A stretch of DNA of 32,000 nucleotides from Lyngbya sp. PCC 8106. Lineage in GTDB: Bacteria; Cyanobacteriota; Cyanobacteriia; Cyanobacteriales; Microcoleaceae. The notes beneath the pieces are model-generated. The model saw nothing but the letters and a program-made list of their open reading frames with translations, was not told where the DNA came from and did no database searches. Below, piece by piece: positions 6,508 through 24,644 of the stretch (within the stretch, counting starts at the first letter, position 1; each line of letters starts with the position of its first letter). The DNA is taken from positions 38,559 to 70,558 of the forward strand of contig NZ_AAVU01000009.1 in NCBI RefSeq assembly GCF_000169095.1, read 5' to 3'. The translations under genes and the position numbers were made by a program.

Positions 6508-6894
6508 ATGATGCTGCTTTCAATTCGTGAGCAAAATTTTACAAAAGAGGTCTTGGGTGCCTCTACTCCAGTTCTTGTTCATTTCTGGGCGCCCTGGTGT
6601 GGGTTGTGTCGGCTGATTGTTCCTCAGTTACACCAATTTCAAGACAACTGGCAAGATCAGGTCAAAGTGGTTGGGGTGAATGCGGATCAAAGTCTTAAAT
6701 TGGCAAGCACCTACCGTCTTCAGACTTTACCCACGGTCATTTTATTCGATAATGGTCAAGAATTACATCGACTCGAACATTTTCATGGACGGGAAGATTT
6801 GCGACGGACTCTTGATGAGTTTATGCAAAATCACCAAAATCGATGTTCTTCTGTGTCTCTCTCAACCCATGAATATCTCTCTTTAGAAGCCTAG
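6508..6894 (+). CDS. Thioredoxin with an atypical WCGLC active site (TrxC-like)
   Basis: 128 aa with VLVHFWAPWCGLCR, then the TLPTVILF cis-Pro region. As I recall, WCGLC instead of WCGPC characterises the cyanobacterial TrxC group. Confidence 0.8.
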   Translation: MMLLSIREQNFTKEVLGASTPVLVHFWAPWCGLCRLIVPQLHQFQDNWQDQVKVVGVNADQSLKLASTYRLQTLPTVILFDNGQELHRLEHFHGREDLRRTLDEFMQNHQNRCSSVSLSTHEYLSLEA

Positions 6895-6905
6895 TTCCTT
6901 CAATA

Positions 6906-7010
6906 GGGAACAGGGAACAGGGAACAGGGAAAAGGCAAAAGGCAAAAGGCAAAAGGCAAAAGGGAAAAGGCAGTTATCAGTAACTTCTAAGTTCTGACTT
7001 CTGACTTTTC
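6906..7010. repeat. Three abutting heptamer tandem arrays (STRR-like): (GGGAACA)x3, (AAAAGGC)x6, (ACTTCTG)x4 degenerate
   Basis: Read directly: GGGAACA at 6906-6926, AAAAGGC units (one variant, AAAAGGG) at 6930-6971, and ACTTCTA/AGTTCTG/ACTTCTG/ACTTTTC at 6983-7010. The region is intergenic, after the thioredoxin stop. Confidence 0.9.
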
Positions 7011-7647: not shown

Positions 7648-7805
7648 TATAGCACTACGCAAATTGGTTAGGACATTTCTAAATTCTGAAACCCTCTCAG
7701 GCGTGTGCATTCCTTGGCGGCTTACAAAGCCGCAGGGTCACACCGCTTTCATAGTCTGCTGTTCCCTGATCCGGTGTTCCCTATTCCCTAGCGCGCAGCG
7801 CTATA
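7648..7805. mobile_element. MITE-like element, copy 1: 13-bp terminal inverted repeats, degenerate GGGAACA array, and a nested ~50-bp hairpin insertion
   Basis: The ends are TATAGCACTACGC (7648-7660) and GCGCAGCGCTATA (7793-7805). The interior is the reverse complement of the 24526-24644 element (CAAATTGGTTAGGACATTTCTAAATTCTGAAACCCT ... CTTTCATAGTCTGCTGTTCCCTG). It also carries an extra block, CTCAGGCGTGTGCATTCCTTGGCGGCTTACAAAGCCGCAGGGTCACACCG. Confidence 0.7.
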
Positions 7806-15404: not shown

Positions 15405-16928
15405 ATGGAAAATTTAGCAGCCTTAACTGATAACAATACACTCTTGACTTTTAATTCAAGTAACCCTGGACAGGTAACACCCATAGCCGTTACAGGAATT
15501 GAGGGAACCTTACTGGGAATTGATACCCGACCTGCGAATGGTCTAATTTATGGCTTGACAACCGCCAACAATCTCTACACAATTGACCCGAACAGTTTTG
15601 ATGATGGTACGTTTACAGGTACCTTTACGCTGACTGATGAAGAAGAAACCCAGTTGCGGAATAACGCCCTTTACGTTAACCTGCATACCCAAAACTTCAA
15701 CGGGGGTGAACTCCGAGGACAAATTAACGTTCCGACAGCAGGTAACATTTCAGTTAGCGGAATTCCTATTCAAGAGTCTCAAGAAGTCGGTAATGTTGTT
15801 CCTCCCGATAGTCCGGCGACAGGTTCCTTTGACGTCACTTACGATGATGCCACAAATCGTTTAACCATTTCTGGAACTTTTGACAATCTGACTAGCTCTT
15901 TATTCCCTGTAGGCCCGGCGGCGGACGTTGAAGGGAATTCTCGTAGCGCCATTCATATTCATAATGGTGTTGCAGGTCAAAATGGGCCGATTCTTCGTTC
16001 TTTGACGGCTTCTGATGGGGTGGCTACCTTGGCGAGTACCCTGTCTCAACCCTTTGAAGGCGGTACTATTTCTGGTTTTGACTTCAACCCAGCCGCTGAC
16101 CGTTTGCGGTTAGTGGGAGACAACGACCAAGATTTTCGGATAAATGTTGATACAGGTGCCGTGATTGTTGACGGGACTTTAGCATTCGCCCCTGGTGATA
16201 TTAATGCAGGTGTTAATCCTAATGTGACCGCCTCTGCTTATACCAATTCCTTTGCGGGAACGACTTCTACACAGCTTTATAACATCGATACGCTGCTGAA
16301 TACGCTCGTTTTGCAAAATCCACCCAACGACGGCATTTTAGTCACGGTGGGGGAATTAGGGCTTGATTTTGATACTTTGGGCGGTTTTGATATTGCTTCT
16401 TCTCCGAATGGGAGTAATACCGCTTTTGCTGTTTCTAATTCAATGTTGTACACGGTTGACTTGGCAACAGGTACCGCAACAAACGTGGGAATGATTGGCG
16501 ATGATGCTAATCTGAATTTACAAGGTCTTGCGGTTGTAGACCCGTTAACAGGAGATTTTGTATTTGACCCCGCTCAATATTTAGCGTCTAATCTGGATTT
16601 AGCGGGTGTATTTGGGTTTGATTTGGCGGCGGCGAATCAACATTATTTACAGTTTGGGATTAATGAAAATCGACCTGTAGATACGTTTGATGAGGTGAGA
16701 TATTTGGCTTCAAATCAGGATTTGATTGGGGTATTTGGTTTTAATCCTGAATTTGCAACGGAACATTATGTTCGTTTTGGTGCAGCAGAAGGTCGTTCAA
16801 CCAATTCTTTTAATCCAGTTAGTTATCTCAATAATAATGCTGACTTACAGGCTTTCTTTGGCAATGATTTAGATGCCGCGACTCAACATTATGTTCAGTT
16901 TGGATTTTCTGAAGGACGTATCGTTTAA
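15405..16928 (+). CDS. DUF4394-domain protein interrupted by a permuted CHRD segment, with three C-terminal ~40-aa repeats
   Basis: DUF4394 signatures are LLTFNSSNPG...GIDTRPANGLIYGLT...LYTIDP, resuming at ATLASTLS...GFDFNPAADRLRLVG...AYTNSFAG...LYNID...LVLQNPPNDG...LYTVDLATGTAT. CHRD signatures lie in between (YVNLHTQNFNGGELRGQI, then QEV...AIHIHNGVAGQNGPI). No signal peptide is present, and an in-frame stop lies 4 codons upstream of the ATG. Confidence 0.7.
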   Translation: MENLAALTDNNTLLTFNSSNPGQVTPIAVTGIEGTLLGIDTRPANGLIYGLTTANNLYTIDPNSFDDGTFTGTFTLTDEEETQLRNNALYVNLHTQNFNGGELRGQINVPTAGNISVSGIPIQESQEVGNVVPPDSPATGSFDVTYDDATNRLTISGTFDNLTSSLFPVGPAADVEGNSRSAIHIHNGVAGQNGPILRSLTASDGVATLASTLSQPFEGGTISGFDFNPAADRLRLVGDNDQDFRINVDTGAVIVDGTLAFAPGDINAGVNPNVTASAYTNSFAGTTSTQLYNIDTLLNTLVLQNPPNDGILVTVGELGLDFDTLGGFDIASSPNGSNTAFAVSNSMLYTVDLATGTATNVGMIGDDANLNLQGLAVVDPLTGDFVFDPAQYLASNLDLAGVFGFDLAAANQHYLQFGINENRPVDTFDEVRYLASNQDLIGVFGFNPEFATEHYVRFGAAEGRSTNSFNPVSYLNNNADLQAFFGNDLDAATQHYVQFGFSEGRIV

Positions 16929-16940
16929 CGGTTTTTAAAT

Positions 16941-17080
16941 GTAGGGTGGGTGAAGATTATCGGAGTTAAATTTAACTTTTTGCGAATTTTTTTCACCCAT
17001 CCAACGGGTATTAAATGTAGGGTGGGTAAGAATTTGGGCAACAATTCAACAATAATCTTTAAATACCTCACCCACCCTAC
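16941..17080. repeat. Two inverted REP doublets (REPIN-like) 3' of the RayT gene
   Basis: The first doublet is GTAGGGTGGGTGA (16941-16953) with TCACCCATCCAAC (16992-17004). The second is GTAGGGTGGGTAA (17017-17029) with TCACCCACCCTAC (17068-17080). Each inverted pair is separated by about 38 nt. Confidence 0.8.
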
Positions 17081-17628
17081 TCGTTTCCAATATTGTTGGA
17101 AATTTGAGGATCGGTATTTGCACTCCAATCGGTTGGATAAATCCCCCGGGCAACAAATCGATGAAAACTCGAAAATTCCCAATCGGCGGGGGAGTGACAT
17201 AAACCATGTTTTACGGGATTATAATGGATATAATTACAGTGATTTTCATAGTCCTGTTCGTTTCTAATTAAATGTTCCCAAAATCGCTTTTGCCAGAGGT
17301 GAGTTTCTTGTTTTTTGATTCGAGATTCACTGAGTTCAAACGGAATCTTTAAGAAGTTTGCATAACGCTTGCTAACATAAGTTTTTATTAATCTCCACCG
17401 AATTGAATAATTATCATCCCCTTCTGGCAGAGTCCAAATACAGTGAATATGATCGGGCAAAAGAACAATAGCATCCAAGGTAAAAGGATATAATTTCATT
17501 ACACGATTAATCCCATTTCGGATCGTCAATCGGGCTTTTTCTTCGCAAAGCCAAGGAATTATCTTGTAGGTAACTTGAGTAAAAAAATAGGTTCCTCCGG
17601 GTTGGCGCAATCTGCGATAATTTGACAT
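17077..17628 (-). CDS. REP-associated tyrosine transposase (RayT / TnpA-REP, IS200/IS605-like Y1 HUH enzyme)
   Basis: 183 aa with the HUH motif LLPDHIHCIW, the catalytic Tyr region NYIHYNPVKHGL and the N-terminal GGTYFFT motif. It is flanked on both sides by GTAGGGTGGGTGA repeats. Confidence 0.85.
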   Translation of the reverse strand: MSNYRRLRQPGGTYFFTQVTYKIIPWLCEEKARLTIRNGINRVMKLYPFTLDAIVLLPDHIHCIWTLPEGDDNYSIRWRLIKTYVSKRYANFLKIPFELSESRIKKQETHLWQKRFWEHLIRNEQDYENHCNYIHYNPVKHGLCHSPADWEFSSFHRFVARGIYPTDWSANTDPQISNNIGNE

Positions 17629-17630
17629 GG

Positions 17631-17695
17631 GTAGGGTGGGTGAGTTTTTTTAACTATTATCGCTGCATTTTCGCCCCAATTCTCACCCACCCTAC
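17631..17695. repeat. Inverted REP doublet 5' of the RayT gene
   Basis: GTAGGGTGGGTGA (17631-17643) and TCACCCACCCTAC (17683-17695), a perfect 13-mer inverted pair. Confidence 0.8.
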
Positions 17696-17736
17696 TATAA
17701 TAAAAACCATCTATCAACCTTTTTCTACAACAACCA

Positions 17737-18174
17737 ATGGAACCCATAGAACTTACCGTCGCTGCCTTAGCTGCCCTAATCATTACCAAAGCAACCGGAA
17801 AAGTAGGTGACAAATTAGGGGATAAAATAGTTGAACAAGGGGGAGTTTTGCTGGAACAACTTTACCATAAATCTCCCCAAACCGCATCCGCGATCGAACA
17901 AGTGAATGAAAGGCCTTTAGATTGGGGTCAAGCGGTGATTGATGTCAAAGCAACGGCAAAAACCGATCCAGAAGTTGCCCAAATCGTTGAGGATTTAGAA
18001 GTAACTATCAGCGAAGATGCAGACCTCAGAAAGAGGTTAGAAGAAATTGCGGCAACTATTAAATCTCAACAAGCCAGCACTCAAAACTATCACAACACGA
18101 TTGAAAAAGTCGTTAACCTAGCTCAAGGAGAAGGCGCTTCTATCAATATTAAAGAACAGAATATCACAATATGA
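17737..18174 (+). CDS. 145-aa helical module with a hydrophobic N-terminal helix; likely the detached N-terminal (effector-type) domain of the downstream NB-ARC/TPR protein
   Basis: The ORF is in the same frame (position mod 3 = 1) as the NB-ARC ORF. It begins MEPIELTVAALAALIITKATGKVGDKLG, is mostly predicted helical, and ends ...NLAQGEGASINIKEQNITI-TGA. I cannot assign a family by eye. Confidence 0.6.
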   Translation: MEPIELTVAALAALIITKATGKVGDKLGDKIVEQGGVLLEQLYHKSPQTASAIEQVNERPLDWGQAVIDVKATAKTDPEVAQIVEDLEVTISEDADLRKRLEEIAATIKSQQASTQNYHNTIEKVVNLAQGEGASINIKEQNITI

Positions 18175-18249
18175 CTACGCCCCCAAACCCCCAATACTGG
18201 GGGCTTTCAAGAAGGTTCCCCCCAAAGTTGGGGGGCTAGGGGGGCAAAA
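18172..18249. repeat. GC-palindrome mini-element, copy A (two G5-6/C5-6 hairpins)
   Basis: TGACTACGCCCCCAAACCCCCAATACTGGGGGCTTTCAAGAAGGTTCCCCCCAAAGTTGGGGGGCTAGGGGGGCAAAA. The palindromes are at 18188-18203 and 18218-18235. It is homologous to the copy at 22248-22342. Confidence 0.8.
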
Positions 18250-18375
18250 CCCTATGAAAACTTAGGTCAACGTGGCATTACTGAACGCGAGAATTTTATT
18301 GGACGAGATACACAACTCGCAGAACTTCACCAACTCCTACAAAAAAATACCCAAGTTGCGATCGCCGCAGCAGTT

Positions 18376-20949
18376 GTGGGAATGGGAGGAGTGGGCAAAA
18401 CTGAACTCGCCATCCAATACGCCCGACAACATCTCAATGAGATTTACAAAGGCGGTGTTTGCTTCATTTCTGGGGGGAGTTTCATCTTCGAGGTGATGCA
18501 ATTTGCCCGTCCTCGGTTCTTCCCCAAGATGGATTTTACAGGCTTTTCGGAAGCTGAACAATTAACCTATTGCTGGCAACATTGGGCAGAGGGTGAGGTG
18601 TTGTTAATAGTTGATGATGTCACCGCCTACAAACAACAGGTTAAACCTTATTTACCCGGAAATCCTCGGTTTAAAGTATTAGTCACCACGCGAGAACAGA
18701 TTCCTGCTGTTACTCCCCTAAATTTAGAAGTTCTTCATCCCAATGATGCTTTAAAATTACTTGAGTCTATTATTGGCGATCGCATTAAAGCCGAACCGGA
18801 AACCGCCGAAGAACTGTGTAAATGGTTAGGTTATTTACCTTTGGGGTTAGAATTAGTGGGGCGATATTTAGCAGATGAAGAAGATCTCTCTTTAGCCAAG
18901 ATGCTGCAACGCCTGCAACGTAAACGCCTCAAACATTCTTCTCTCCAAAATGAAGACAACACAGCAGAAACCGCAGAATTAGGAGTCGCCGCCGCCTTTG
19001 AGTTGAGTTGGGAACGGTTGCAAAAACAGCCCGAAACGCAACAGTTGGGGTGTTTGTTGTCTTTGTTTTCTCCCGATGCTATTTTGTGGGACTTAGTTGA
19101 AACGGTGTATCAAGGTTGGCAAGGAGAGGAAATTGATCTCGAAGATATTGAGGATAGTAGACGCAAGTTAGTTAAACTCAGTTTATTTCAACGAACCAAA
19201 GAGAAAACCTATCGACTCCATCAACTCCTACGAGAGTTTTTCCGCGACAAACTAGAGGAACAAAAAGACGTAGCCGCAATGAAACAAGCCTTTGTCACCA
19301 CAATGGCTAATATTGCTTCTCATATTCCTCACAATATGACAACGCAACAAGTTAAACGGGTTGAACTTGCTATTAAACATATTGAAGAAGTTGCTAATTC
19401 CTACATTGAGTTGTTATCCGATGAAGATTTAATTAGACCGTTTACTAGGTTAGCTTGGTTTTATAAAGGTCAGACTTTGTATTCTGAAGCAGAACCTTGG
19501 CTGAAGAAAGGTGTAGAAATTACAAAAAACCGTTTCGGAGAGGAACATCCATCTGTTGCCACTAGCCTGAATAACTTAGCCTCACTTTACGAGTCTCAAG
19601 GACGCTACGCTGAAGCTGAACCCCTGTTTCAGCAAGCCTTAGCAATGAGACAACGGCTATTTGATGGCGATCATCCCGATGTTGCTTCCAGCCTGAATAA
19701 CTTAGCCTCTCTTTACGAGTCTCAAGGACGTTACAGCGAAGCCGAACCCTTGTATCAGCAAGCTTTAGAAATGACACAACGGCTATTTGATGGTGACCAT
19801 CCCTCTGTTGCACTCAGCCTGAATAACTTAGCCTCTCTTTACAACTCTCAAGGACGCAACAGCGAAGCCGAACCCTTGTTACAGCAAGCCTTAGAAATGA
19901 CACAACGGCTATTTGAAGGCGACCATCCCGATGTTGCCACTAGCCTGAATAACTTAGCCTACCTTTACAAGTCTCAAGGACGCAACAGCGAAGCCGAACC
20001 CTTGTTACAGCAAGCCTTAGCTATGTATCAACGGCTATTTGAGGGCGACCATCCTAATATTGCCACCAGCCTGAATAACTTAGCCTACCTTTACGAGTCA
20101 CAAGGACGCTACAGCGAAGCCGAAGCTTTGTTTCAACAAGCTTTAGAAATGAGACAACGGCTGTTTGAAGGCGACCATCCCTCTGTTGCTACCAGCCTGA
20201 ATAACTTAGGCTTACTTTACAACTCTCAAGGACGCTACAGTCAAGCCGAACCCTTGTATCAGCAAGCCTTAGCAATGAGACAACGGCTGTTTGAGGGCGA
20301 TCATCCCAATGTTGCTTCCAGCCTGAATAACTTAGCCGGACTTTGCCATTCCCAAGGACGCAACAGAGAAGCCGAACCCTTGTATCAGCAAGCCTTAGCT
20401 ATGTATCAACGGCTATTTGATGGCGACCATCCCGATGTTGCTTCCAGCCTGAATAACTTAGCCTACCTTTACAAGTCTCAAGGACGCAACAGCGAAGCCG
20501 AACCCTTGTATCAGCAAGCCTTAGAAATGACACAACGGCTATTTGAAGGCGACCATCCCGATGTTGCCACTAGCCTGAATAACTTAGCCTACCTTTACAA
20601 GTCTCAAGGACGCAACAGCGAAGCCGAACCCTTGTATCAGCAAGCCTTAGAAATGAGACAACGGCTATTTGAGGGCGACCATCCCGATGTTGCCACCAGC
20701 CTGAATAACTTAGCCTATCTTTACGAGTCACAAGGACGCTACAGCGAAGCCGAACCCCTGTTTCAGCAAGCGTTGTTTATGTTAGTCAAAACTTTAGGTA
20801 AAGATCATCCTAATACTCAAACAATTTGGCAAAACTTAATCATATTTTTAATCAAAGTCATCCAGGAAAACAAAACCGATCAATTAAGTGATAATGAATT
20901 CATTCAATCTTTAGTTTCTCAGCTTCAGCAGCAAGAAAACTCATCATAA
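18376..20949 (+). CDS. NB-ARC (STAND/NLR-type) NTPase with a C-terminal TPR array; the conserved in-frame coding sequence actually extends upstream to 18175
   Basis: Motifs present are Walker A GMGGVGKT, Walker B LLIVDDV, VLVTTR, GYLPLGLELVG (GLPL motif) and an MHD-like YRLHQLLREF. A cap plus ten 42-aa TPR units follow. The track start is a GTG sitting on the P-loop itself. The upstream in-frame ...ENLGQRGITERENFIGRDTQLAELHQLLQKNTQVAIAAAVVG is typical NB-ARC N-terminal sequence but has no ATG/GTG/TTG start. Confidence 0.85.
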   Translation: MGMGGVGKTELAIQYARQHLNEIYKGGVCFISGGSFIFEVMQFARPRFFPKMDFTGFSEAEQLTYCWQHWAEGEVLLIVDDVTAYKQQVKPYLPGNPRFKVLVTTREQIPAVTPLNLEVLHPNDALKLLESIIGDRIKAEPETAEELCKWLGYLPLGLELVGRYLADEEDLSLAKMLQRLQRKRLKHSSLQNEDNTAETAELGVAAAFELSWERLQKQPETQQLGCLLSLFSPDAILWDLVETVYQGWQGEEIDLEDIEDSRRKLVKLSLFQRTKEKTYRLHQLLREFFRDKLEEQKDVAAMKQAFVTTMANIASHIPHNMTTQQVKRVELAIKHIEEVANSYIELLSDEDLIRPFTRLAWFYKGQTLYSEAEPWLKKGVEITKNRFGEEHPSVATSLNNLASLYESQGRYAEAEPLFQQALAMRQRLFDGDHPDVASSLNNLASLYESQGRYSEAEPLYQQALEMTQRLFDGDHPSVALSLNNLASLYNSQGRNSEAEPLLQQALEMTQRLFEGDHPDVATSLNNLAYLYKSQGRNSEAEPLLQQALAMYQRLFEGDHPNIATSLNNLAYLYESQGRYSEAEALFQQALEMRQRLFEGDHPSVATSLNNLGLLYNSQGRYSQAEPLYQQALAMRQRLFEGDHPNVASSLNNLAGLCHSQGRNREAEPLYQQALAMYQRLFDGDHPDVASSLNNLAYLYKSQGRNSEAEPLYQQALEMTQRLFEGDHPDVATSLNNLAYLYKSQGRNSEAEPLYQQALEMRQRLFEGDHPDVATSLNNLAYLYESQGRYSEAEPLFQQALFMLVKTLGKDHPNTQTIWQNLIIFLIKVIQENKTDQLSDNEFIQSLVSQLQQQENSS
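19546..20805 (+). repeat. Ten tandem 126-bp units (42-aa TPR_10/12-like repeats) inside the NB-ARC gene
   Basis: The units start at 19546 + 126n, each beginning CAT CC(N) = His-Pro. The consensus is HPDVATSLNNLAYLYKSQGRNSEAEPLYQQALEMTQRLFEGD. Units 4 and 9 share an identical run of more than 80 nt. Confidence 0.95.
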
Positions 20950-20957
20950 TAAATTCA

Positions 20958-20995
20958 AAGTCCCTCGCCTCGTAGGAGAGGGATTTAGGAAGAAG
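20958..20995 (+). repeat. 38-bp hairpin repeat, copy 1 (AAGTCCCTCGCCT...ATTTAGGAAGAAG)
   Basis: It matches the copy at 21706-21743 at 32 of 38 positions in the same orientation. It contains the stem TCCCTC/GAGGGA and lies just after the NB-ARC stop, so it may also serve as a terminator. Confidence 0.7.
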
Positions 20996-21073
20996 TTCTT
21001 CACAAACTGCGATCGCATTCTAACGAGCTATACTATAATTAACCTAAAATATAGAATCCTCAAAAAAAAGATT

Positions 21074-21364
21074 ATGCTAAATGGTATCAAACAGCGAGGA
21101 GTTGTTAGCAAAGATGGCACAATTGAAATTCAAACACCTGAACTTCCAGAAGGAACCGTTGTTGAGGTGATTATTTTAGTAGAGTCAGAGGCAATAGAGT
21201 CAGATAGTAGCTCACAAATTCCACAAGATACAACAGAATATTTACTCTCAAATGAAGCGAACCGTCGTCACTTACTCACTGGAATTCAAAATATAGAAAC
21301 CAATACTAATTTAGTCAGTTTTACATTAGAGGAATGGAATGAGGAACATAACATTCACTCCTAA
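21074..21364 (+). CDS. Type II antitoxin with a YefM/Phd-like C-terminal toxin-binding segment and a different N-terminal domain
   Basis: 96 aa. The C-terminal TTEYLLSNEANRRHLLTGIQNIE resembles the YefM tail (LLSxPxNAxxLxxSI). The N-terminal GVVSKDGTIEIQTPELPEGTVVEVIIL looks like a small beta (AbrB/AF2212-like) domain. The ORF overlaps the start of the downstream yoeB-like ORF by 26 nt. Confidence 0.55.
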   Translation: MLNGIKQRGVVSKDGTIEIQTPELPEGTVVEVIILVESEAIESDSSSQIPQDTTEYLLSNEANRRHLLTGIQNIETNTNLVSFTLEEWNEEHNIHS

Positions 21365-21603
21365 ATCTTTTGAAGATTTTAATAATTGGTCAAAACAGGA
21401 TCGGAAAATTTATCGTAAGATTATTACTCTGATTAACGATATACTCCGTCAACCTTTCACTGGGCTGGGTAAACCTGAACCCCCTAAAACATGAGCTGAA
21501 AGGATATTGGTCACGACGCATTACCGATGAGCATCGTTTAGTATATCAGGTCAGTGAGAATGCAATCACTATTCTAAGTTGCCGATTTCATTACGATAAT
21601 TAA
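21339..21603 (+). pseudogene. yoeB: YoeB/Txe-family toxin gene disrupted by a 1-nt insertion in a C5 run
   Basis: Frame 1 reads [51 protein letters not shown] (stop at 21492-21494). Dropping one C of CCCCC (21480-21484) restores ...[44 protein letters not shown] (stop at 21601-21603), which is a canonical YoeB sequence. Confidence 0.8.
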
Positions 21604-21705
21604 AATCAAATAAATTCTATACGAAAAGTTTATAAAATCAAACTCAATTCATCTAATCCTCGTTACTATTGCTTAAAATATTTAAAATGCGATCGCTATG
21701 TTTCC

Positions 21706-21743
21706 AAGTCCCTCGCCTTATAGCAGAGGTATTTAGGGAGAGG
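21706..21743 (+). repeat. 38-bp hairpin repeat, copy 2
   Basis: AAGTCCCTCGCCTTATAGCAGAGGTATTTAGGGAGAGG, a direct repeat of 20958-20995. Confidence 0.7.
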
Positions 21744-21786
21744 TTGAAATGGTAAAATAAAATTATCCTTGATTAAGATTCCGATT

Positions 21787-22212: not shown

Positions 22213-22247
22213 AAATTTTATCCCAAAAAATTAATCCGAAACCCCCG

Positions 22248-22342
22248 TGACGTTGCCCCCAAACCCCCAATATTGGGGGCTTTAAGAAATGGGGACTTTT
22301 AAGAATATTCCCCCCAGAATTGGGGGGCGAGGGGGGCGAAAA
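22248..22342. repeat. GC-palindrome mini-element, copy B
   Basis: TGACGTTGCCCCCAAACCCCCAATATTGGGGGCTTTAAGAA[ATGGGGACTTTTAAGAATA]TTCCCCCCAGAATTGGGGGGCGAGGGGGGCGAAAA. It lies between the convergent DUF29 and mnmA genes. Confidence 0.8.
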
Positions 22343-24525: not shown

Positions 24526-24644
24526 TATAGCGCTACGCGCTAGGGAACAGGGAACAGGGAACAGGGAACAGGGAACAGGGAACAGCAGACTATGAAAGGG
24601 TTTCAGAATTTATAAATGTCCTAATCAATTTGCGTAGCGCTATA
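24526..24644. mobile_element. MITE-like element, copy 2 (13-bp TIRs, six perfect GGGAACA heptamers)
   Basis: TATAGCGCTACGC (24526-24538) ... (GGGAACA)x6 ... CAGCAGACTATGAAAGGGTTTCAGAATTTATAAATGTCCTAATCAATTT ... GCGTAGCGCTATA (24632-24644). It is the reverse orientation of the 7648-7805 copy. Confidence 0.8.

What the first reader, a model, noticed from the sequence alone, without database searches (positions are those of the whole stretch)
17737..20949. NLR-like STAND NTPase whose N-terminal module and NB-ARC/TPR body share one frame, broken by a single TGA at the edge of a GC-palindrome mini-element
Frame evidence:
- ORF 17737-18174 and ORF 18376-20949 are in the same frame (both positions equal 1 mod 3).
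- I translated all 67 codons between them (18175-18375) and found no stop and no ATG/GTG/TTG. They read LRPQTPNTGGFQEGSPQSWGARGAKPYENLGQRGITERENFIGRDTQLAELHQLLQKNTQVAIAAAV.
- The second half is the conserved pre-P-loop segment of NB-ARC proteins (FxGRxxEL...beta1-GMGGVGKT). It must therefore be coding, yet it has no start of its own.
- The only interruption is TGA at 18172-18174.

Link to the mini-element:
- That TGA is the first three bases of TGAC, which also begins the second copy of the repeat (TGACGTTGCCCCC at 22248).
- The stop therefore appears to have arrived with the element.

Inference: the ancestral gene was one polypeptide, N-terminal helical module + NB-ARC + TPR, the all-in-one architecture of bacterial NLR-like conflict/defence proteins (Avs/bacterial NLR class).
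- The N-terminal module starts with a hydrophobic helix and ends in a short beta-prone N/Q/I-rich tail.
- This is reminiscent of the membrane-targeting Bell/HeLo-like effector domains, with or without amyloid signalling motifs, described next to bacterial NLRs.
- I cannot confirm that family by eye.

Open alternatives: a dead gene, a split two-protein system, or low-level UGA-C readthrough giving the full-length protein.
Basis: partly seen in the sequence, partly recalled or inferred. Interest (0 to 1): 0.75.

Follow-up and report, generated by a model that had tools for sequence, protein, structure and literature searches.

The report
Conserved in-frame stop between effector, NLR
A cyanobacterial NLR-like immune-sensor gene has no start codon of its own and lies in frame behind a small effector gene, separated only by a UGA stop that is conserved across many cyanobacteria together with an RNA hairpin just after it, which suggests the sensor is made by deliberate read-through of the stop; in this genome a small GC-rich repeat has replaced the hairpin.

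Summary
ORF 17737-18174 and the NB-ARC/TPR body share one frame, interrupted only by TGA 18172-18174, and no ATG/GTG/TTG precedes the P-loop.

The stop did not arrive with the GC-palindrome element. The same in-frame TGA occurs in about 20 related loci from four cyanobacterial orders, most of which lack the element. No relative has an uninterrupted fusion.

In element-free relatives the UGA (almost always UGA-C) is followed, after an 8-nt spacer, by a 5-bp hairpin with compensatory changes (98.5% paired; 3 of 5 pairs covary). A downstream pseudoknot stem is possible. About half of the lineages have no canonical start before the first conserved NB-ARC motif. The NLR is nevertheless under purifying selection (dN/dS 0.10-0.33).

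The small protein belongs to a family of 288 clusters with Bell-like features: an N-terminal hydrophobic helix, a helical bundle, and variable adaptor or amyloid-type tails.

Best reading (about 0.55): programmed UGA read-through yields an abundant free effector plus a rare effector-adaptor-NLR fusion. In the window the native hairpin was replaced, in frame, by a palindromic repeat. No product has been detected, so read-through remains an inference.

The parts
17737..18171 (+). Small effector ORF (145 aa). [quoted passage not shown]
   Evidence: ORF. AF2 gives pLDDT 79.5 and pTM 0.75, seven helices, residues 133-145 disordered. The family has 288 cluster representatives, nearly all stand-alone at 120-160 aa. 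There is no Pfam hit.
18094..18171 (+). C-terminal adaptor or amyloid-type motif of the effector (NTIEKVVNLAQGEGASINIKEQNITI).
   Evidence: The motif is conserved in relatives. It is duplicated onto the NLR N-terminus in L002. It is exchanged for other short G/N/Q-rich tails or for Pfam EAD9 in family members.
18172..18174 (+). In-frame UGA, followed by C at 18175. This is the only interruption between the effector ORF and the NLR body.
   Evidence: The same TGA occurs at the homologous position in all in-frame relatives. The +4 base is C in all but two.
18179..18249 (+). GC-rich palindromic mini-element: outer arms GCCCCC/GGGGGC, inner hairpins 18188-18203 and 18218-18235. It is translated in frame as part of the linker and occupies the place of the native hairpin.
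   Evidence: It folds at -42.2 kcal/mol starting 5 nt after the UGA. The same element sits at the same junction in L001, L004, L010 and L012, with spacer lengths of 78-144 nt that are all divisible by 3.
18175..18375 (+). Linker plus pre-P-loop N-terminus of the NB-ARC domain. There is no ATG/GTG/TTG.
   Evidence: The last 42 codons have pN/pS 0.14-0.38.
18307..19266 (+). NB-ARC NTPase domain (Walker A GMGGVGKT at 18379-18402) plus the helical DUF7779 region.
   Evidence: Pfam NB-ARC 9.1e-15 and DUF7779 1.9e-06. dN/dS is 0.10-0.33 against relatives.
19486..20949 (+). TPR sensor array (about 10 units of 126 nt, roughly 80% identical to each other) running to the stop at 20947-20949.
   Evidence: Repeat family D1. 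TPR_12 and TPR_10 at E values down to 1e-199.
22240..22340 (+). Second, intergenic copy of the GC-palindrome element, with the 5' arm and an internal duplication of about 16 nt.
   Evidence: (D15).

Best explanation
The locus is a cyanobacterial effector/NLR conflict system expressed as a single reading frame with a conserved leaky UGA.

Proposed mechanism:
- Most ribosomes terminate at UGA 18172-18174. This gives the free 145-aa product: a helical Bell-like membrane-targeting domain plus a short adaptor or amyloid-type tail.
- A minority decode UGA-C, most likely as Trp, and continue through a flexible linker into NB-ARC-TPR. This gives a rare effector-adaptor-NLR fusion of about 1070 aa.
- The fusion is the only form of the sensor that carries the adaptor motif. 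On ligand-induced NLR oligomerisation it would nucleate and activate both its own effector domains and the free ones.

In relatives, read-through would be promoted by a conserved signal: UGA-C, an 8-nt spacer, a 5-bp hairpin with a G-rich 8-nt loop, and possibly a pseudoknot. In this window and four related lineages the native hairpin and linker were replaced by a GC-rich palindromic repeat that keeps the frame open and supplies a strong structure of its own.

Shown: the in-frame arrangement, the conservation of the UGA, the hairpin covariation, the lack of start codons, and purifying selection on the NLR.

Inferred: that read-through actually occurs, its efficiency, the amino acid inserted, and the signalling model.
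For: 1. An in-frame TGA with an open downstream frame occurs in about 20 distinct loci. Their small-protein identity to the window is 30-94%, and they come from Oscillatoriales, Leptolyngbya-like lineages, Coleofasciculales and Nostocales.
2. The stop is always TGA in these loci. Background TGA use is 23% among long ORFs in the held loci. Three of the four orphan or canonical loci use TAA or TAG (L025, L033, L039), and all four lack the hairpin.
3. In 7 of 13 NLR-type lineages there is no ATG/GTG/TTG before the first conserved NB-ARC motif. Annotation pipelines resorted to CTG, ATT or internal starts beyond conserved motifs.
4. The NLR body has dN/dS 0.10-0.33, including 0.10 for window vs L001. 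The pre-P-loop segment has pN/pS 0.14-0.38.
5. The hairpin 8 nt after the UGA is 98.5% paired, against 78.6% in shuffles (0/500) and 23-46% when slid. Three of five pairs show double-sided changes in 12 cells. RNAalifold predicts the same hairpin. The covarying changes alter the encoded amino acids, so the constraint is on the RNA.
6. The 36 nt after the UGA are more conserved than the preceding coding sequence and show no third-position relaxation.
7. The covariance model hits only the junctions in 218 kb, including the held-out L034 and L036.
8. Five element-bearing alleles have UGA-to-YENL spacers of 78, 84, 93, 111 and 144 nt, all divisible by 3, although the internal indels of about 16-17 nt are not.
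9. In L002 a 74-nt tandem duplication gives the NLR its own ATG and motif. There the codon homologous to the UGA is a sense codon, TTA.
10. Canonical pairs such as L033 carry the motif on the sensor N-terminus. The in-frame sensors have none, so only a fusion would couple sensor and effector.
11. UGA is the leakiest stop in E. coli and is mainly read as Trp. Reported read-through reaches 14% and higher under stress (PMC11126739).
Against: - There is no direct evidence of a read-through product. No proteomics or Ribo-seq data were available here.
- A 5-bp hairpin is a weak stimulator, and the pseudoknot stem has only modest support (P = 0.016, register not fixed).
- RNA-stimulated stop-codon read-through of cellular bacterial genes is, to my knowledge, undescribed. 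The prior is therefore low.
- Some lineages do have in-frame canonical starts close to the UGA: L019 GTG immediately after it, L013 TTG/GTG, L001 TTG inside the element.
- The post-UGA linker shows no coding-type periodicity. Its translation is inferred from the open frame alone.
- The loci are phylogenetically related, so the counts are not independent events.
- The window itself lacks the native hairpin. Its allele could be less functional than those of its relatives.
Confidence: 0.55

Rival explanations
1. Two separate proteins. The NLR is initiated independently at a non-canonical codon: the conserved ATT of '...QRG-I...' at 18277 (GTG in L013), a CTG, or re-initiation after termination at the UGA. 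The hairpin would then be an intercistronic regulatory or processing element, and the NLR would be made at a low level without being fused to the effector.
For: - The ATT at the 'RGI' position is conserved in the Limnoraphis/Lyngbya clade and aligns with a GTG in L013.
- NCBI pipelines chose ATT in L009 and L032 and CTG in L004.
- L019 has GTG directly after the TGA. L013, L031 and L036 have canonical starts near the NB-ARC N-terminus.
- Near-cognate starts work at low efficiency in bacteria (general knowledge).
Against: - It does not explain why the stop is always TGA, nor why the frame is continuous with the small ORF and stop-free in every lineage, including five element alleles with compensating indels.
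- It does not explain why the hairpin sits at a fixed 8 nt from the UGA.
- It does not explain why L002 converts the UGA-homologous codon to a sense codon once the NLR has its own ATG.
- An NLR made this way would lack any adaptor motif to talk to the effector.
- The codon right after the UGA (CTA, CCG, CCA) is mostly not start-like.
Confidence: 0.2
2. The family uses recoding, but the window's allele is impaired or on its way to decay. On this view the palindromic element destroyed the native read-through signal, so here the NLR is expressed poorly or not at all.
For: - The covariance model finds no native hairpin in the window, L001, L004, L010 or L012.
- L012/L017, an element-bearing allele, has a further insertion that breaks the NLR frame.
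- L018 has another insertion inside the element.
- The neighbourhood shows other decay: a frameshifted yoeB and a RAYT insertion.
Against: - Window vs L001, which both carry the element, has dN/dS 0.10 at dS 0.22 over 330 codons. The full 924-codon frame is intact.
- Frame and openness are preserved in four intact element alleles of different lengths.
- The element itself provides a -42 kcal/mol structure 5 nt after the UGA.
Confidence: 0.12
3. +1 ribosomal frameshift. The NLR would initiate at the ATG of ATGA (18171, translationally coupled) and shift +1 at a CCC-C site in the element (ACG CCC C) into the NLR frame.
For: - ATGA is present in the window, L001, L004, L007, L010, L022 and L024.
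- CCC-C sites follow the ATG in these alleles.
- CCC-C is a known +1-prone sequence (general knowledge).
Against: - The ATG is not conserved. L013, L019, L020, L031, L034, L036, L040 and L042 have TTTGA, ATTTGA or similar.
- The ATG frame hits stops within 6-22 codons in several loci.
- This was my own first hypothesis, in the form 'the element frameshifted a coupled gene'. It was dropped when element-free relatives turned out to be in frame 0.
Confidence: 0.04
4. Selenocysteine insertion. The UGA would encode Sec and the downstream hairpin would be a bacterial SECIS.
For: An in-frame UGA followed closely by a conserved hairpin with a G-containing loop is the generic anatomy of a bacterial SECIS.
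Against: - No relative has Cys (TGY) at the position. L002 has Leu TTA.
- The residue lies in a flexible linker with no catalytic context.
- The hairpin loop starts 13 nt after the UGA, nearer than I recall for SECIS consensus models. That comparison rests on memory and was not tested.
- There is no Rfam match.
- The element-bearing alleles replace the hairpin with an unrelated structure.
- As far as I recall, the Sec-decoding trait is rare or absent in cyanobacteria. This was not tested.
Confidence: 0.03
5. A single ancestral polypeptide (effector + NB-ARC + TPR) was recently broken by a stop codon carried in by the GC-palindrome element.
For: The shared frame, the single TGA, and the element immediately next to it.
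Against: - The TGA is present at the same codon in element-free relatives down to about 30% identity.
- No uninterrupted fusion exists among 8 + 96 homologues and 288 representatives.
- The TGAC in copy 2 is internal to the element.
Confidence: 0.02

Closest known systems
Bell-domain/BASS effector + NLR gene pairs of filamentous bacteria (Dyrka et al. 2020, bioRxiv 10.1101/2020.01.06.895854)
   Same: [quoted passage not shown]
- A short C-terminal G/N/Q-rich motif.
- An adjacent NB-ARC/TPR NLR.
- A multicellular cyanobacterial host.
- Relatives L033 and L002 have the canonical layout, with the motif repeated on the sensor N-terminus and a 4-bp ATGA overlap in L002.
   Different: - Here, and in about 20 related loci, the NLR has neither its own start codon nor its own motif copy.
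- It is in frame with the effector behind a conserved UGA followed by a hairpin.
- The motif-pair screen of that paper required annotated NLR N-termini, so it would not have picked such loci up.
Bab/Agp amyloid-signalling Abi system of E. coli (bioRxiv 10.1101/2024.11.07.622273) and fungal HET-S/NWD2
   Same: A cell-death effector with a helical membrane-targeting domain, activated through a shared short motif by an adjacent sensor.
   Different: Those systems have two separately translated proteins, each with its own motif. Here a single motif copy would be shared by two products of one frame. Neither amyloid formation nor defence activity has been tested for this family.
All-in-one NLR/STAND conflict proteins (effector-NOD-repeat in one polypeptide: Avs, bNACHT, fungal NLRs)
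   Same: The putative read-through product would have exactly this architecture: effector, NB-ARC, TPR.
   Different: No relative encodes the uninterrupted fusion. The stop is conserved, which implies that the free short effector is also needed.
Viral programmed stop-codon read-through signals (MuLV gag-pol type: stop, 8-nt spacer, pseudoknot; alphavirus/'UGA-CUA' context; phage Q-beta A1 UGA read-through)
   Same: - A conserved leaky stop (UGA-C, often UGA CUA G).
- An 8-nt spacer, then a conserved structured element with an A-rich 3' flank.
- Two products sharing an N-terminus at a set ratio.
   Different: The host is a bacterium and the gene is cellular. The stem is only 5 bp and the pseudoknot is only tentatively supported. 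No experimental evidence exists. The viral features listed are from general knowledge and from PMC13517186 (abstract only).
Effector-associated domains (EADs) coupling effectors to STAND NTPases (Pfam EAD9, PF19962)
   Same: One family member (P0240) carries EAD9 in the C-terminal tail at the position of the window's motif. This supports an adaptor role for the tail.
   Different: The window's own tail has no Pfam match. EAD pairs are described as present on both partners (from memory), which is not the case here.
Cyanobacterial small palindromic repeats (MITE/REP-like elements)
   Same: The 18179-18249 insert is a nested GC palindrome of about 70-100 nt. It has a second intergenic copy in the window, and its presence varies between close relatives (L004 has it, L009 does not).
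   Different: It lies inside a translated frame and has been kept open and in frame in several lineages. No transposase link, terminal inverted repeat or target-site duplication could be defined, and no named family could be assigned.

Membership tests
Bell-domain effector with C-terminal signalling motif (Dyrka et al. 2020) | Alpha-helical globular domain of about 100 aa (a helix bundle) | tested here: met
   The AF2 model has pLDDT 79.5 and pTM 0.75, with seven helices over residues 3-130.
Bell-domain effector with C-terminal signalling motif (Dyrka et al. 2020) | N-terminal hydrophobic helix with an acidic residue at position 2 or 3 | tested here: met
   The sequence starts MEPIELTVAALAALIITK. 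M1, E2 and P3 are invariant in close relatives, and ME/DP is conserved across the family.
Bell-domain effector with C-terminal signalling motif (Dyrka et al. 2020) | Significant match to the published Bell profile HMM | not testable with these tools
   The Bell pHMM is not in Pfam, NCBIfam or PADLOC, and there were no hits there. Foldseek against the PDB gave no significant match.
Bell-domain effector with C-terminal signalling motif (Dyrka et al. 2020) | The same short motif at the effector C-terminus and at the N-terminus of the adjacent NLR | tested here: not met
   The window's NLR has no motif copy and no N-terminus of its own. The feature is met only in relatives L002 (74-nt duplication) and L033.
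Bell-domain effector with C-terminal signalling motif (Dyrka et al. 2020) | The motif forms amyloid or prion-like fibrils | not testable with these tools
   This needs in vitro fibrillation or Podospora assays. AF2 only shows that the tail is disordered.
Bacterial NLR-like STAND NTPase (NB-ARC + TPR) | NB-ARC domain above the Pfam gathering score, with a Walker A motif | tested here: met
   PF00931 scores 55.0 bits against a cutoff of 23.5. GMGGVGKT lies at 18379-18402.
Bacterial NLR-like STAND NTPase (NB-ARC + TPR) | C-terminal repeat sensor array | tested here: met
   TPR_12 at 3.6e-199. There are about 10 units of 126 nt.
Bacterial NLR-like STAND NTPase (NB-ARC + TPR) | An independent cistron with its own initiation codon | tested here: not met
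   There is no ATG/GTG/TTG between the UGA and the codon next to the P-loop.
Programmed stop-codon read-through (recoding) signal | A downstream ORF in frame with the stop, open and conserved across divergent relatives | tested here: met
   About 20 loci show this. dN/dS of the extension is 0.10-0.33.
Programmed stop-codon read-through (recoding) signal | Conserved stop identity and leaky 3' context | tested here: met
   The stop is TGA in all in-frame loci, and the +4 base is C in all but two. Background TGA use is 23%.
Programmed stop-codon read-through (recoding) signal | A conserved RNA structure at a fixed short distance 3' of the stop, supported by covariation | tested here: inconclusive
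   This is met in element-free relatives. In the window itself the native hairpin is absent and has been replaced by the element's structure. The pseudoknot stem is only tentative.
Programmed stop-codon read-through (recoding) signal | Detection of the extended protein, or of ribosomes translating past the stop | not testable with these tools
   No proteomic or Ribo-seq data are accessible here.
Bacterial selenoprotein gene (UGA = Sec with SECIS) | Cys-containing homologues at the UGA position | tested here: not met
   No TGY occurs at the homologous codon in any locus. L002 has TTA there.
Bacterial selenoprotein gene (UGA = Sec with SECIS) | The genome encodes SelA/SelB/tRNA-Sec | not tested
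MITE/REP-like palindromic repeat | Multiple dispersed copies with a conserved palindromic structure | tested here: inconclusive
   There are two copies in the window, and presence varies between L004 and L009. Among the held loci all other copies are at this same junction. A viral-contig scan was empty, and no genome-wide census was possible.

The most novel reading that the evidence does not exclude
Filamentous cyanobacteria carry a conserved, RNA-stimulated programmed UGA read-through signal: UGA-C, an 8-nt spacer, and a 5-bp hairpin or small pseudoknot. This lets one reading frame produce both an abundant free pore-forming-type effector with an amyloid or adaptor tail and a rare effector-adaptor-NLR fusion that acts as sensor and nucleator. 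It would be a recoding-based intermediate between 'all-in-one' and 'two-component amyloid-signalling' NLR architectures. The cassette is modular: it is also joined to FGE-sulfatase, PsbP-like and other sensor domains. It also tolerates replacement of its hairpin by a palindromic repeat, as in this window.
Probability: 0.5. Interest if true: 0.9.

Novelty: new variant of a known kind. Interest (0 to 1): 0.8.

Why it matters
- **Recoding.** If read-through is confirmed, this would, to my knowledge, be the first cellular bacterial gene family that uses a stop-codon read-through signal with a conserved RNA stimulator. That kind of recoding is so far associated with viruses and eukaryotes.
- **A stoichiometry problem in NLR and amyloid signalling.** The arrangement would explain how a cell makes many effectors and few sensors from one gene with one motif copy.
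- **Evolution of NLR architectures.** It gives a concrete route between fused and split forms. L002 shows a 74-nt duplication converting the read-through form into a canonical gene pair.
- **Annotation.** Genome pipelines mis-annotate these NLRs, giving them truncated N-termini or ATT/CTG starts. Motif-pair screens for bacterial amyloid signalling would miss them.
- **Testability.** The signal is short and easy to test with reporters.

Tried and rejected
1. **My first alternative.** I proposed two translationally coupled genes (ATGA), with the 67-nt element (1 mod 3) having frameshifted the NLR start. L002/L003 seemed to support this. I rejected it when the element-free loci L007/L009 and L013, and later about 15 more, proved to be in frame 0 behind the TGA. 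L002 itself proved to be a 74-nt tandem duplication.
2. **+1 frameshift from the ATG.** The ATG is not conserved.
3. **Dead gene.** Rejected on dN/dS.
4. **Structural confirmation of a HeLo/Bell fold.** Foldseek against the PDB gave no match with E below 0.9.
5. **HMM libraries.** Pfam, NCBIfam and PADLOC gave nothing meaningful for the small protein.
6. **Broad alignment for the metagenome scan.** A narrower one worked.
7. **Missing or unusable data.** P0233 had no gene on record. L015 has an N-gap at the junction, so its frame cannot be judged.
8. **Pseudoknot stem 2.** It could not be written in one fixed register on the alignment, so I tested it only by permutation (P = 0.016). I treat it as tentative.
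9. **Other searches.** Rfam gave no family. A viral-contig scan for the element gave nothing. Literature searches found no prior description of an in-frame-UGA effector-NLR arrangement. The held library does not cover subscription journals.

Full report
**1. Observation.**
The window is cyanobacterial: 41.6% GC with 21 HIP1 sites. It is about 90% identical at the DNA level to 'Cyanobacteria bacterium J06592_8' and syntenic with Limnoraphis and Lyngbya contigs.

ORF 17737-18174 and the NB-ARC/TPR ORF are in the same frame. Translating 17737-20949 gives a single stop, TGA 18172-18174. The 67 codons that follow have no stop and no ATG/GTG/TTG. Pfam finds NB-ARC, with a match beginning 45 residues after the TGA, followed by TPR_12 and TPR_10 repeats.

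A GC-rich nested palindrome occupies 18179-18249, and a second copy lies at about 22240-22340. The raw observation is confirmed.

**2. The stop is older than the element.**
All 8 close homologues of the 145-aa ORF are stand-alone proteins of 143-156 aa. I examined their loci and found three situations.
- **Element present.** L001, L010/11, L004-6 and L012 carry the same element at the same place. The NLR is in frame behind the TGA in each.
- **Element absent, still in frame.** L007-9 (Limnoraphis robusta, 82% identity) and L013 (57% identity) have no element. The NLR is still in frame behind a TGA, followed by a short conserved linker (NITI*PDSSERERTKLTPPYENL... and NINL*LDSSAEVRTKFTSIPQNL...).
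- **Two genes overlapping by ATGA.** L002/3 has two genes in different frames. This is a 74-nt tandem duplication of the motif-coding DNA (copies about 88% identical). It gives the NLR its own ATG and its own motif copy. In the second copy, the codon homologous to the TGA is TTA.

The element did not bring the stop.

**3. The arrangement is widespread.**
A profile search gave 288 cluster representatives of the small protein. Nearly all are stand-alone at 120-160 aa. The few long ones are fused to HEAT repeats, a dynamin-like GTPase or unknown regions, and never to NB-ARC.

Distant relatives show the same junction again and again: small ORF, TGA, in-frame open ORF. They came from metagenomes (30-44% identity), from a second subfamily of 96 clusters and from annotated cyanobacterial plasmids. 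The loci are L019, L020, L022/26, L024, L028, L031 (Alkalinema), L032 (Allocoleopsis PCC 7113), L034, L036, L038 (Microchaete), L040, L041 (Nostoc C057) and L042 (Nostoc UHCC 0870).

The downstream module is usually NB-ARC-TPR. It can also be an FGE-sulfatase domain (L028), a TM + PsbP-like module (L038) or an unknown domain (L020).

The exceptions are informative:
- L033 (Anabaena cylindrica) is a canonical pair. It has a TAA stop, an ATG 14 nt later, and the motif on the sensor N-terminus.
- L025, L029 and L039 are orphans with no in-frame partner. Two of them end in TAG.

**4. The NLR cannot start on its own, yet it is maintained.**
In 7 of 13 NLR-type lineages no ATG/GTG/TTG precedes the first conserved NB-ARC motif. 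Annotators chose CTG (L004), ATT (L009 and RefSeq L032), or internal codons beyond the conserved GR motif or even the Walker A motif.

The NB-ARC region nevertheless has dN/dS 0.10-0.33 at dS up to 1.2. That includes 0.10 for window vs L001, which both carry the element. The 42 pre-P-loop codons, which lie upstream of the only candidate GTG in the window, have pN/pS 0.14-0.38 and coding-type periodicity. The region 18253-18375 is therefore translated, and the gene is not dead.

**5. A conserved RNA signal follows the UGA.**
In element-free loci the sequence after the stop is colinear: UGA, C, an 8-nt spacer, a 5-bp stem, an 8-nt G-rich loop, the other strand of the stem, then AAAG....
- On 15 sequences the stem is 98.5% paired, against 78.6% in column shuffles (0/500) and 23-46% when the partner is slid.
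- Three of five pairs show double-sided changes in 12 cells: UA/CG/GC, GC/CG/UG and GC/CG.
- RNAalifold predicts the same hairpin.
- The covarying substitutions change the encoded residues (S/A/P, P/R/G, T/P/V). The constraint is therefore on the RNA and not on the peptide.
- The 36 nt after the UGA are more conserved than the 36 nt before it, and they lack third-position relaxation: entropy by codon position is 7.6/9.0/7.9 after the UGA against 13.5/11.1/19.2 before it.
- The loop can pair with a C-rich stretch 7-12 nt after the stem (GGGAG/CTCCC, GAGGT/ACCTC, AGGAT/ATCCT, CGGGA/TCCCG, GGGG/CCCC). A permutation test gives P = 0.016. An H-type pseudoknot is therefore possible but not established.
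- A covariance model of UGA + hairpin hits only these junctions in 218 kb. It recovers the held-out L034 and L036. It finds nothing in the orphan or canonical loci or in the element-bearing alleles.
- Rfam has no match.

**6. What happened in the window.**
In the window, L001, L010, L004 and L012, the native hairpin and linker (42 nt in L007) are replaced by the palindromic element.
- The UGA-to-YENL spacers are 78, 84, 93, 111 and 144 nt. All are divisible by 3 and stop-free, even though the alleles differ by internal duplications of about 16-17 nt and other indels that are not multiples of 3. This points to selection for continuity with the frame of the small ORF.
- L004 and L009 have nearly identical NLRs (dS 0.12), but one has the element and the other has the native hairpin. 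The element is therefore polymorphic, or it has been exchanged by recombination.
- In the window the element folds into a -42.2 kcal/mol structure starting 5 nt after the UGA.

**7. Identity of the small protein.**
AF2 gives a confident helical bundle with a disordered tail at residues 133-145. The N-terminus is a hydrophobic helix with Glu at position 2.

Family tails are short, variable and rich in G, N and Q. Examples are ...IEKVVNLAQGxxASINIxxQNI...GTTITGGNVGNTGIVGSTIEGGTFNI and ...KIGFVIQGGYNPVKIEKLEL. One member has Pfam EAD9 at that position.

These are the features described for Bell-domain/BASS effectors next to NLRs in multicellular bacteria (bioRxiv 10.1101/2020.01.06.895854). The canonical relatives L033 and L002 show the expected motif sharing.

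I could not test the Bell HMM, and Foldseek against the PDB gave nothing significant. Membership is therefore likely but unproven.

**8. Mechanism.**
The simplest model that accounts for all of the above is programmed read-through of the UGA. It explains:
- the fixed UGA;
- the leaky +4 C;
- the hairpin at the distance typical of recoding stimulators;
- the in-frame open linker;
- the lack of start codons;
- selection on the NLR;
- the absence of any adaptor motif on the sensor;
- the TGA-to-TTA change once L002 acquired a separate start.

UGA is the leakiest stop in E. coli, is read mostly as Trp, and is strongly dependent on context and stress (PMC11126739).

The model predicts two products: an abundant free effector and a rare effector-adaptor-NLR fusion. 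I rate it at about 0.55 because nothing here shows the product directly.

The rivals, each with its evidence and refuting tests, are given in the Rival explanations section:
- non-canonical independent initiation (about 0.2);
- an impaired allele in this window (about 0.12);
- a +1 frameshift from the ATGA start (about 0.04);
- selenocysteine (about 0.03);

**9. Novelty.**
Effector/NLR pairs with shared motifs are known, and so are all-in-one NLRs. I found no description of a conserved in-frame UGA plus RNA hairpin joining the two, nor of its replacement by a palindromic repeat, in the searchable literature. I file it as a new variant of a known kind. It is of high interest because it would add a recoding mechanism to bacterial immunity, and because it can be tested directly.

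Noticed in passing
window 17000-17679 (gene 17077-17628, minus strand; inverted repeats 16927-17091 / 17620-17704): There is a cassette of about 680 bp with an IS200-like Y1 transposase (a weak Pfam Y1_Tnp hit, RAYT-like) flanked by inverted GTAGGGTGGGTGA repeats. Relative to L010 it is an insertion between the DUF4394/CHRD gene and the effector ORF, directly upstream of the effector's start.
   Followed up: partly
window 21074-21600: This is a type II toxin-antitoxin remnant. The antitoxin-like ORF 21074-21364 is intact, but the YoeB-like toxin (21339-21494) is cut to 51 aa by a frameshift. The intact homologue in L012 is 87 aa.
   Followed up: partly
window 20954-20997 and 21702-21745: Another small palindromic repeat (TTCAAAGTCCCTCGCC...GAGGGATTTAGG, 84% identical copies) is present. 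The first copy starts 5 nt after the NLR stop codon.
   Followed up: no
window 6890-6976, 7648-7805 and 24526-24644: STRR-type heptamer tracts (GGGAACA)n lie next to inverted repeat copies of about 120-150 nt (92-96% complementary). The copies are 16.7 kb apart and bracket the region that contains the NLR locus.
   Followed up: no
L002:6365-6510 (also L003): A 74-nt tandem duplication of the motif-coding segment converts the in-frame-UGA form into a canonical two-gene pair: an ATGA overlap, with the NLR gaining its own ATG and motif. It is a natural example of how split amyloid-signalling pairs could arise.
   Followed up: yes
L004:6380-6471, L012:2830-2922 (proteins P0006, P0007, also P0010): The effector C-terminal tail is exchanged as a cassette. 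A different motif (GTTITGGNVGNTGIVGSTIEGGTFNI) sits on an otherwise 70-80% identical helical domain. The UGA and the in-frame NLR are retained.
   Followed up: partly
L012:3040-3075 (= L017) and L018:4500-4628: These are secondary hits on element-bearing alleles. A roughly 28-nt insertion after the GRD motif breaks the NLR frame in L012/L017. In L018 unrelated DNA interrupts the element itself just before the contig end.
   Followed up: no
L032 (NC_019761.1, WP_226883740.1), L041 (WP_179076033.1), L042 (WP_237997356.1), L040 (ARV63362.1): Public annotations start these NLRs at ATT or at internal codons, cutting off conserved NB-ARC residues. In L040 the annotated start lies after the Walker A motif. 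This looks like a systematic annotation artefact of the in-frame-UGA arrangement.
   Followed up: yes
L028:3882-4781, L038:3888-4547, L020:617-1618: The same effector-UGA-hairpin cassette is followed in frame by non-NTPase modules: an FGE-sulfatase domain, a TM + PsbP-like module, and an unknown domain. The cassette is therefore not tied to NLRs.
   Followed up: partly
window 19486-20793: The TPR array consists of about 10 head-to-tail 126-nt units that are roughly 80% identical to each other. This high internal repeat conservation is the kind reported for NLR sensor arrays prone to repeat shuffling.
   Followed up: no
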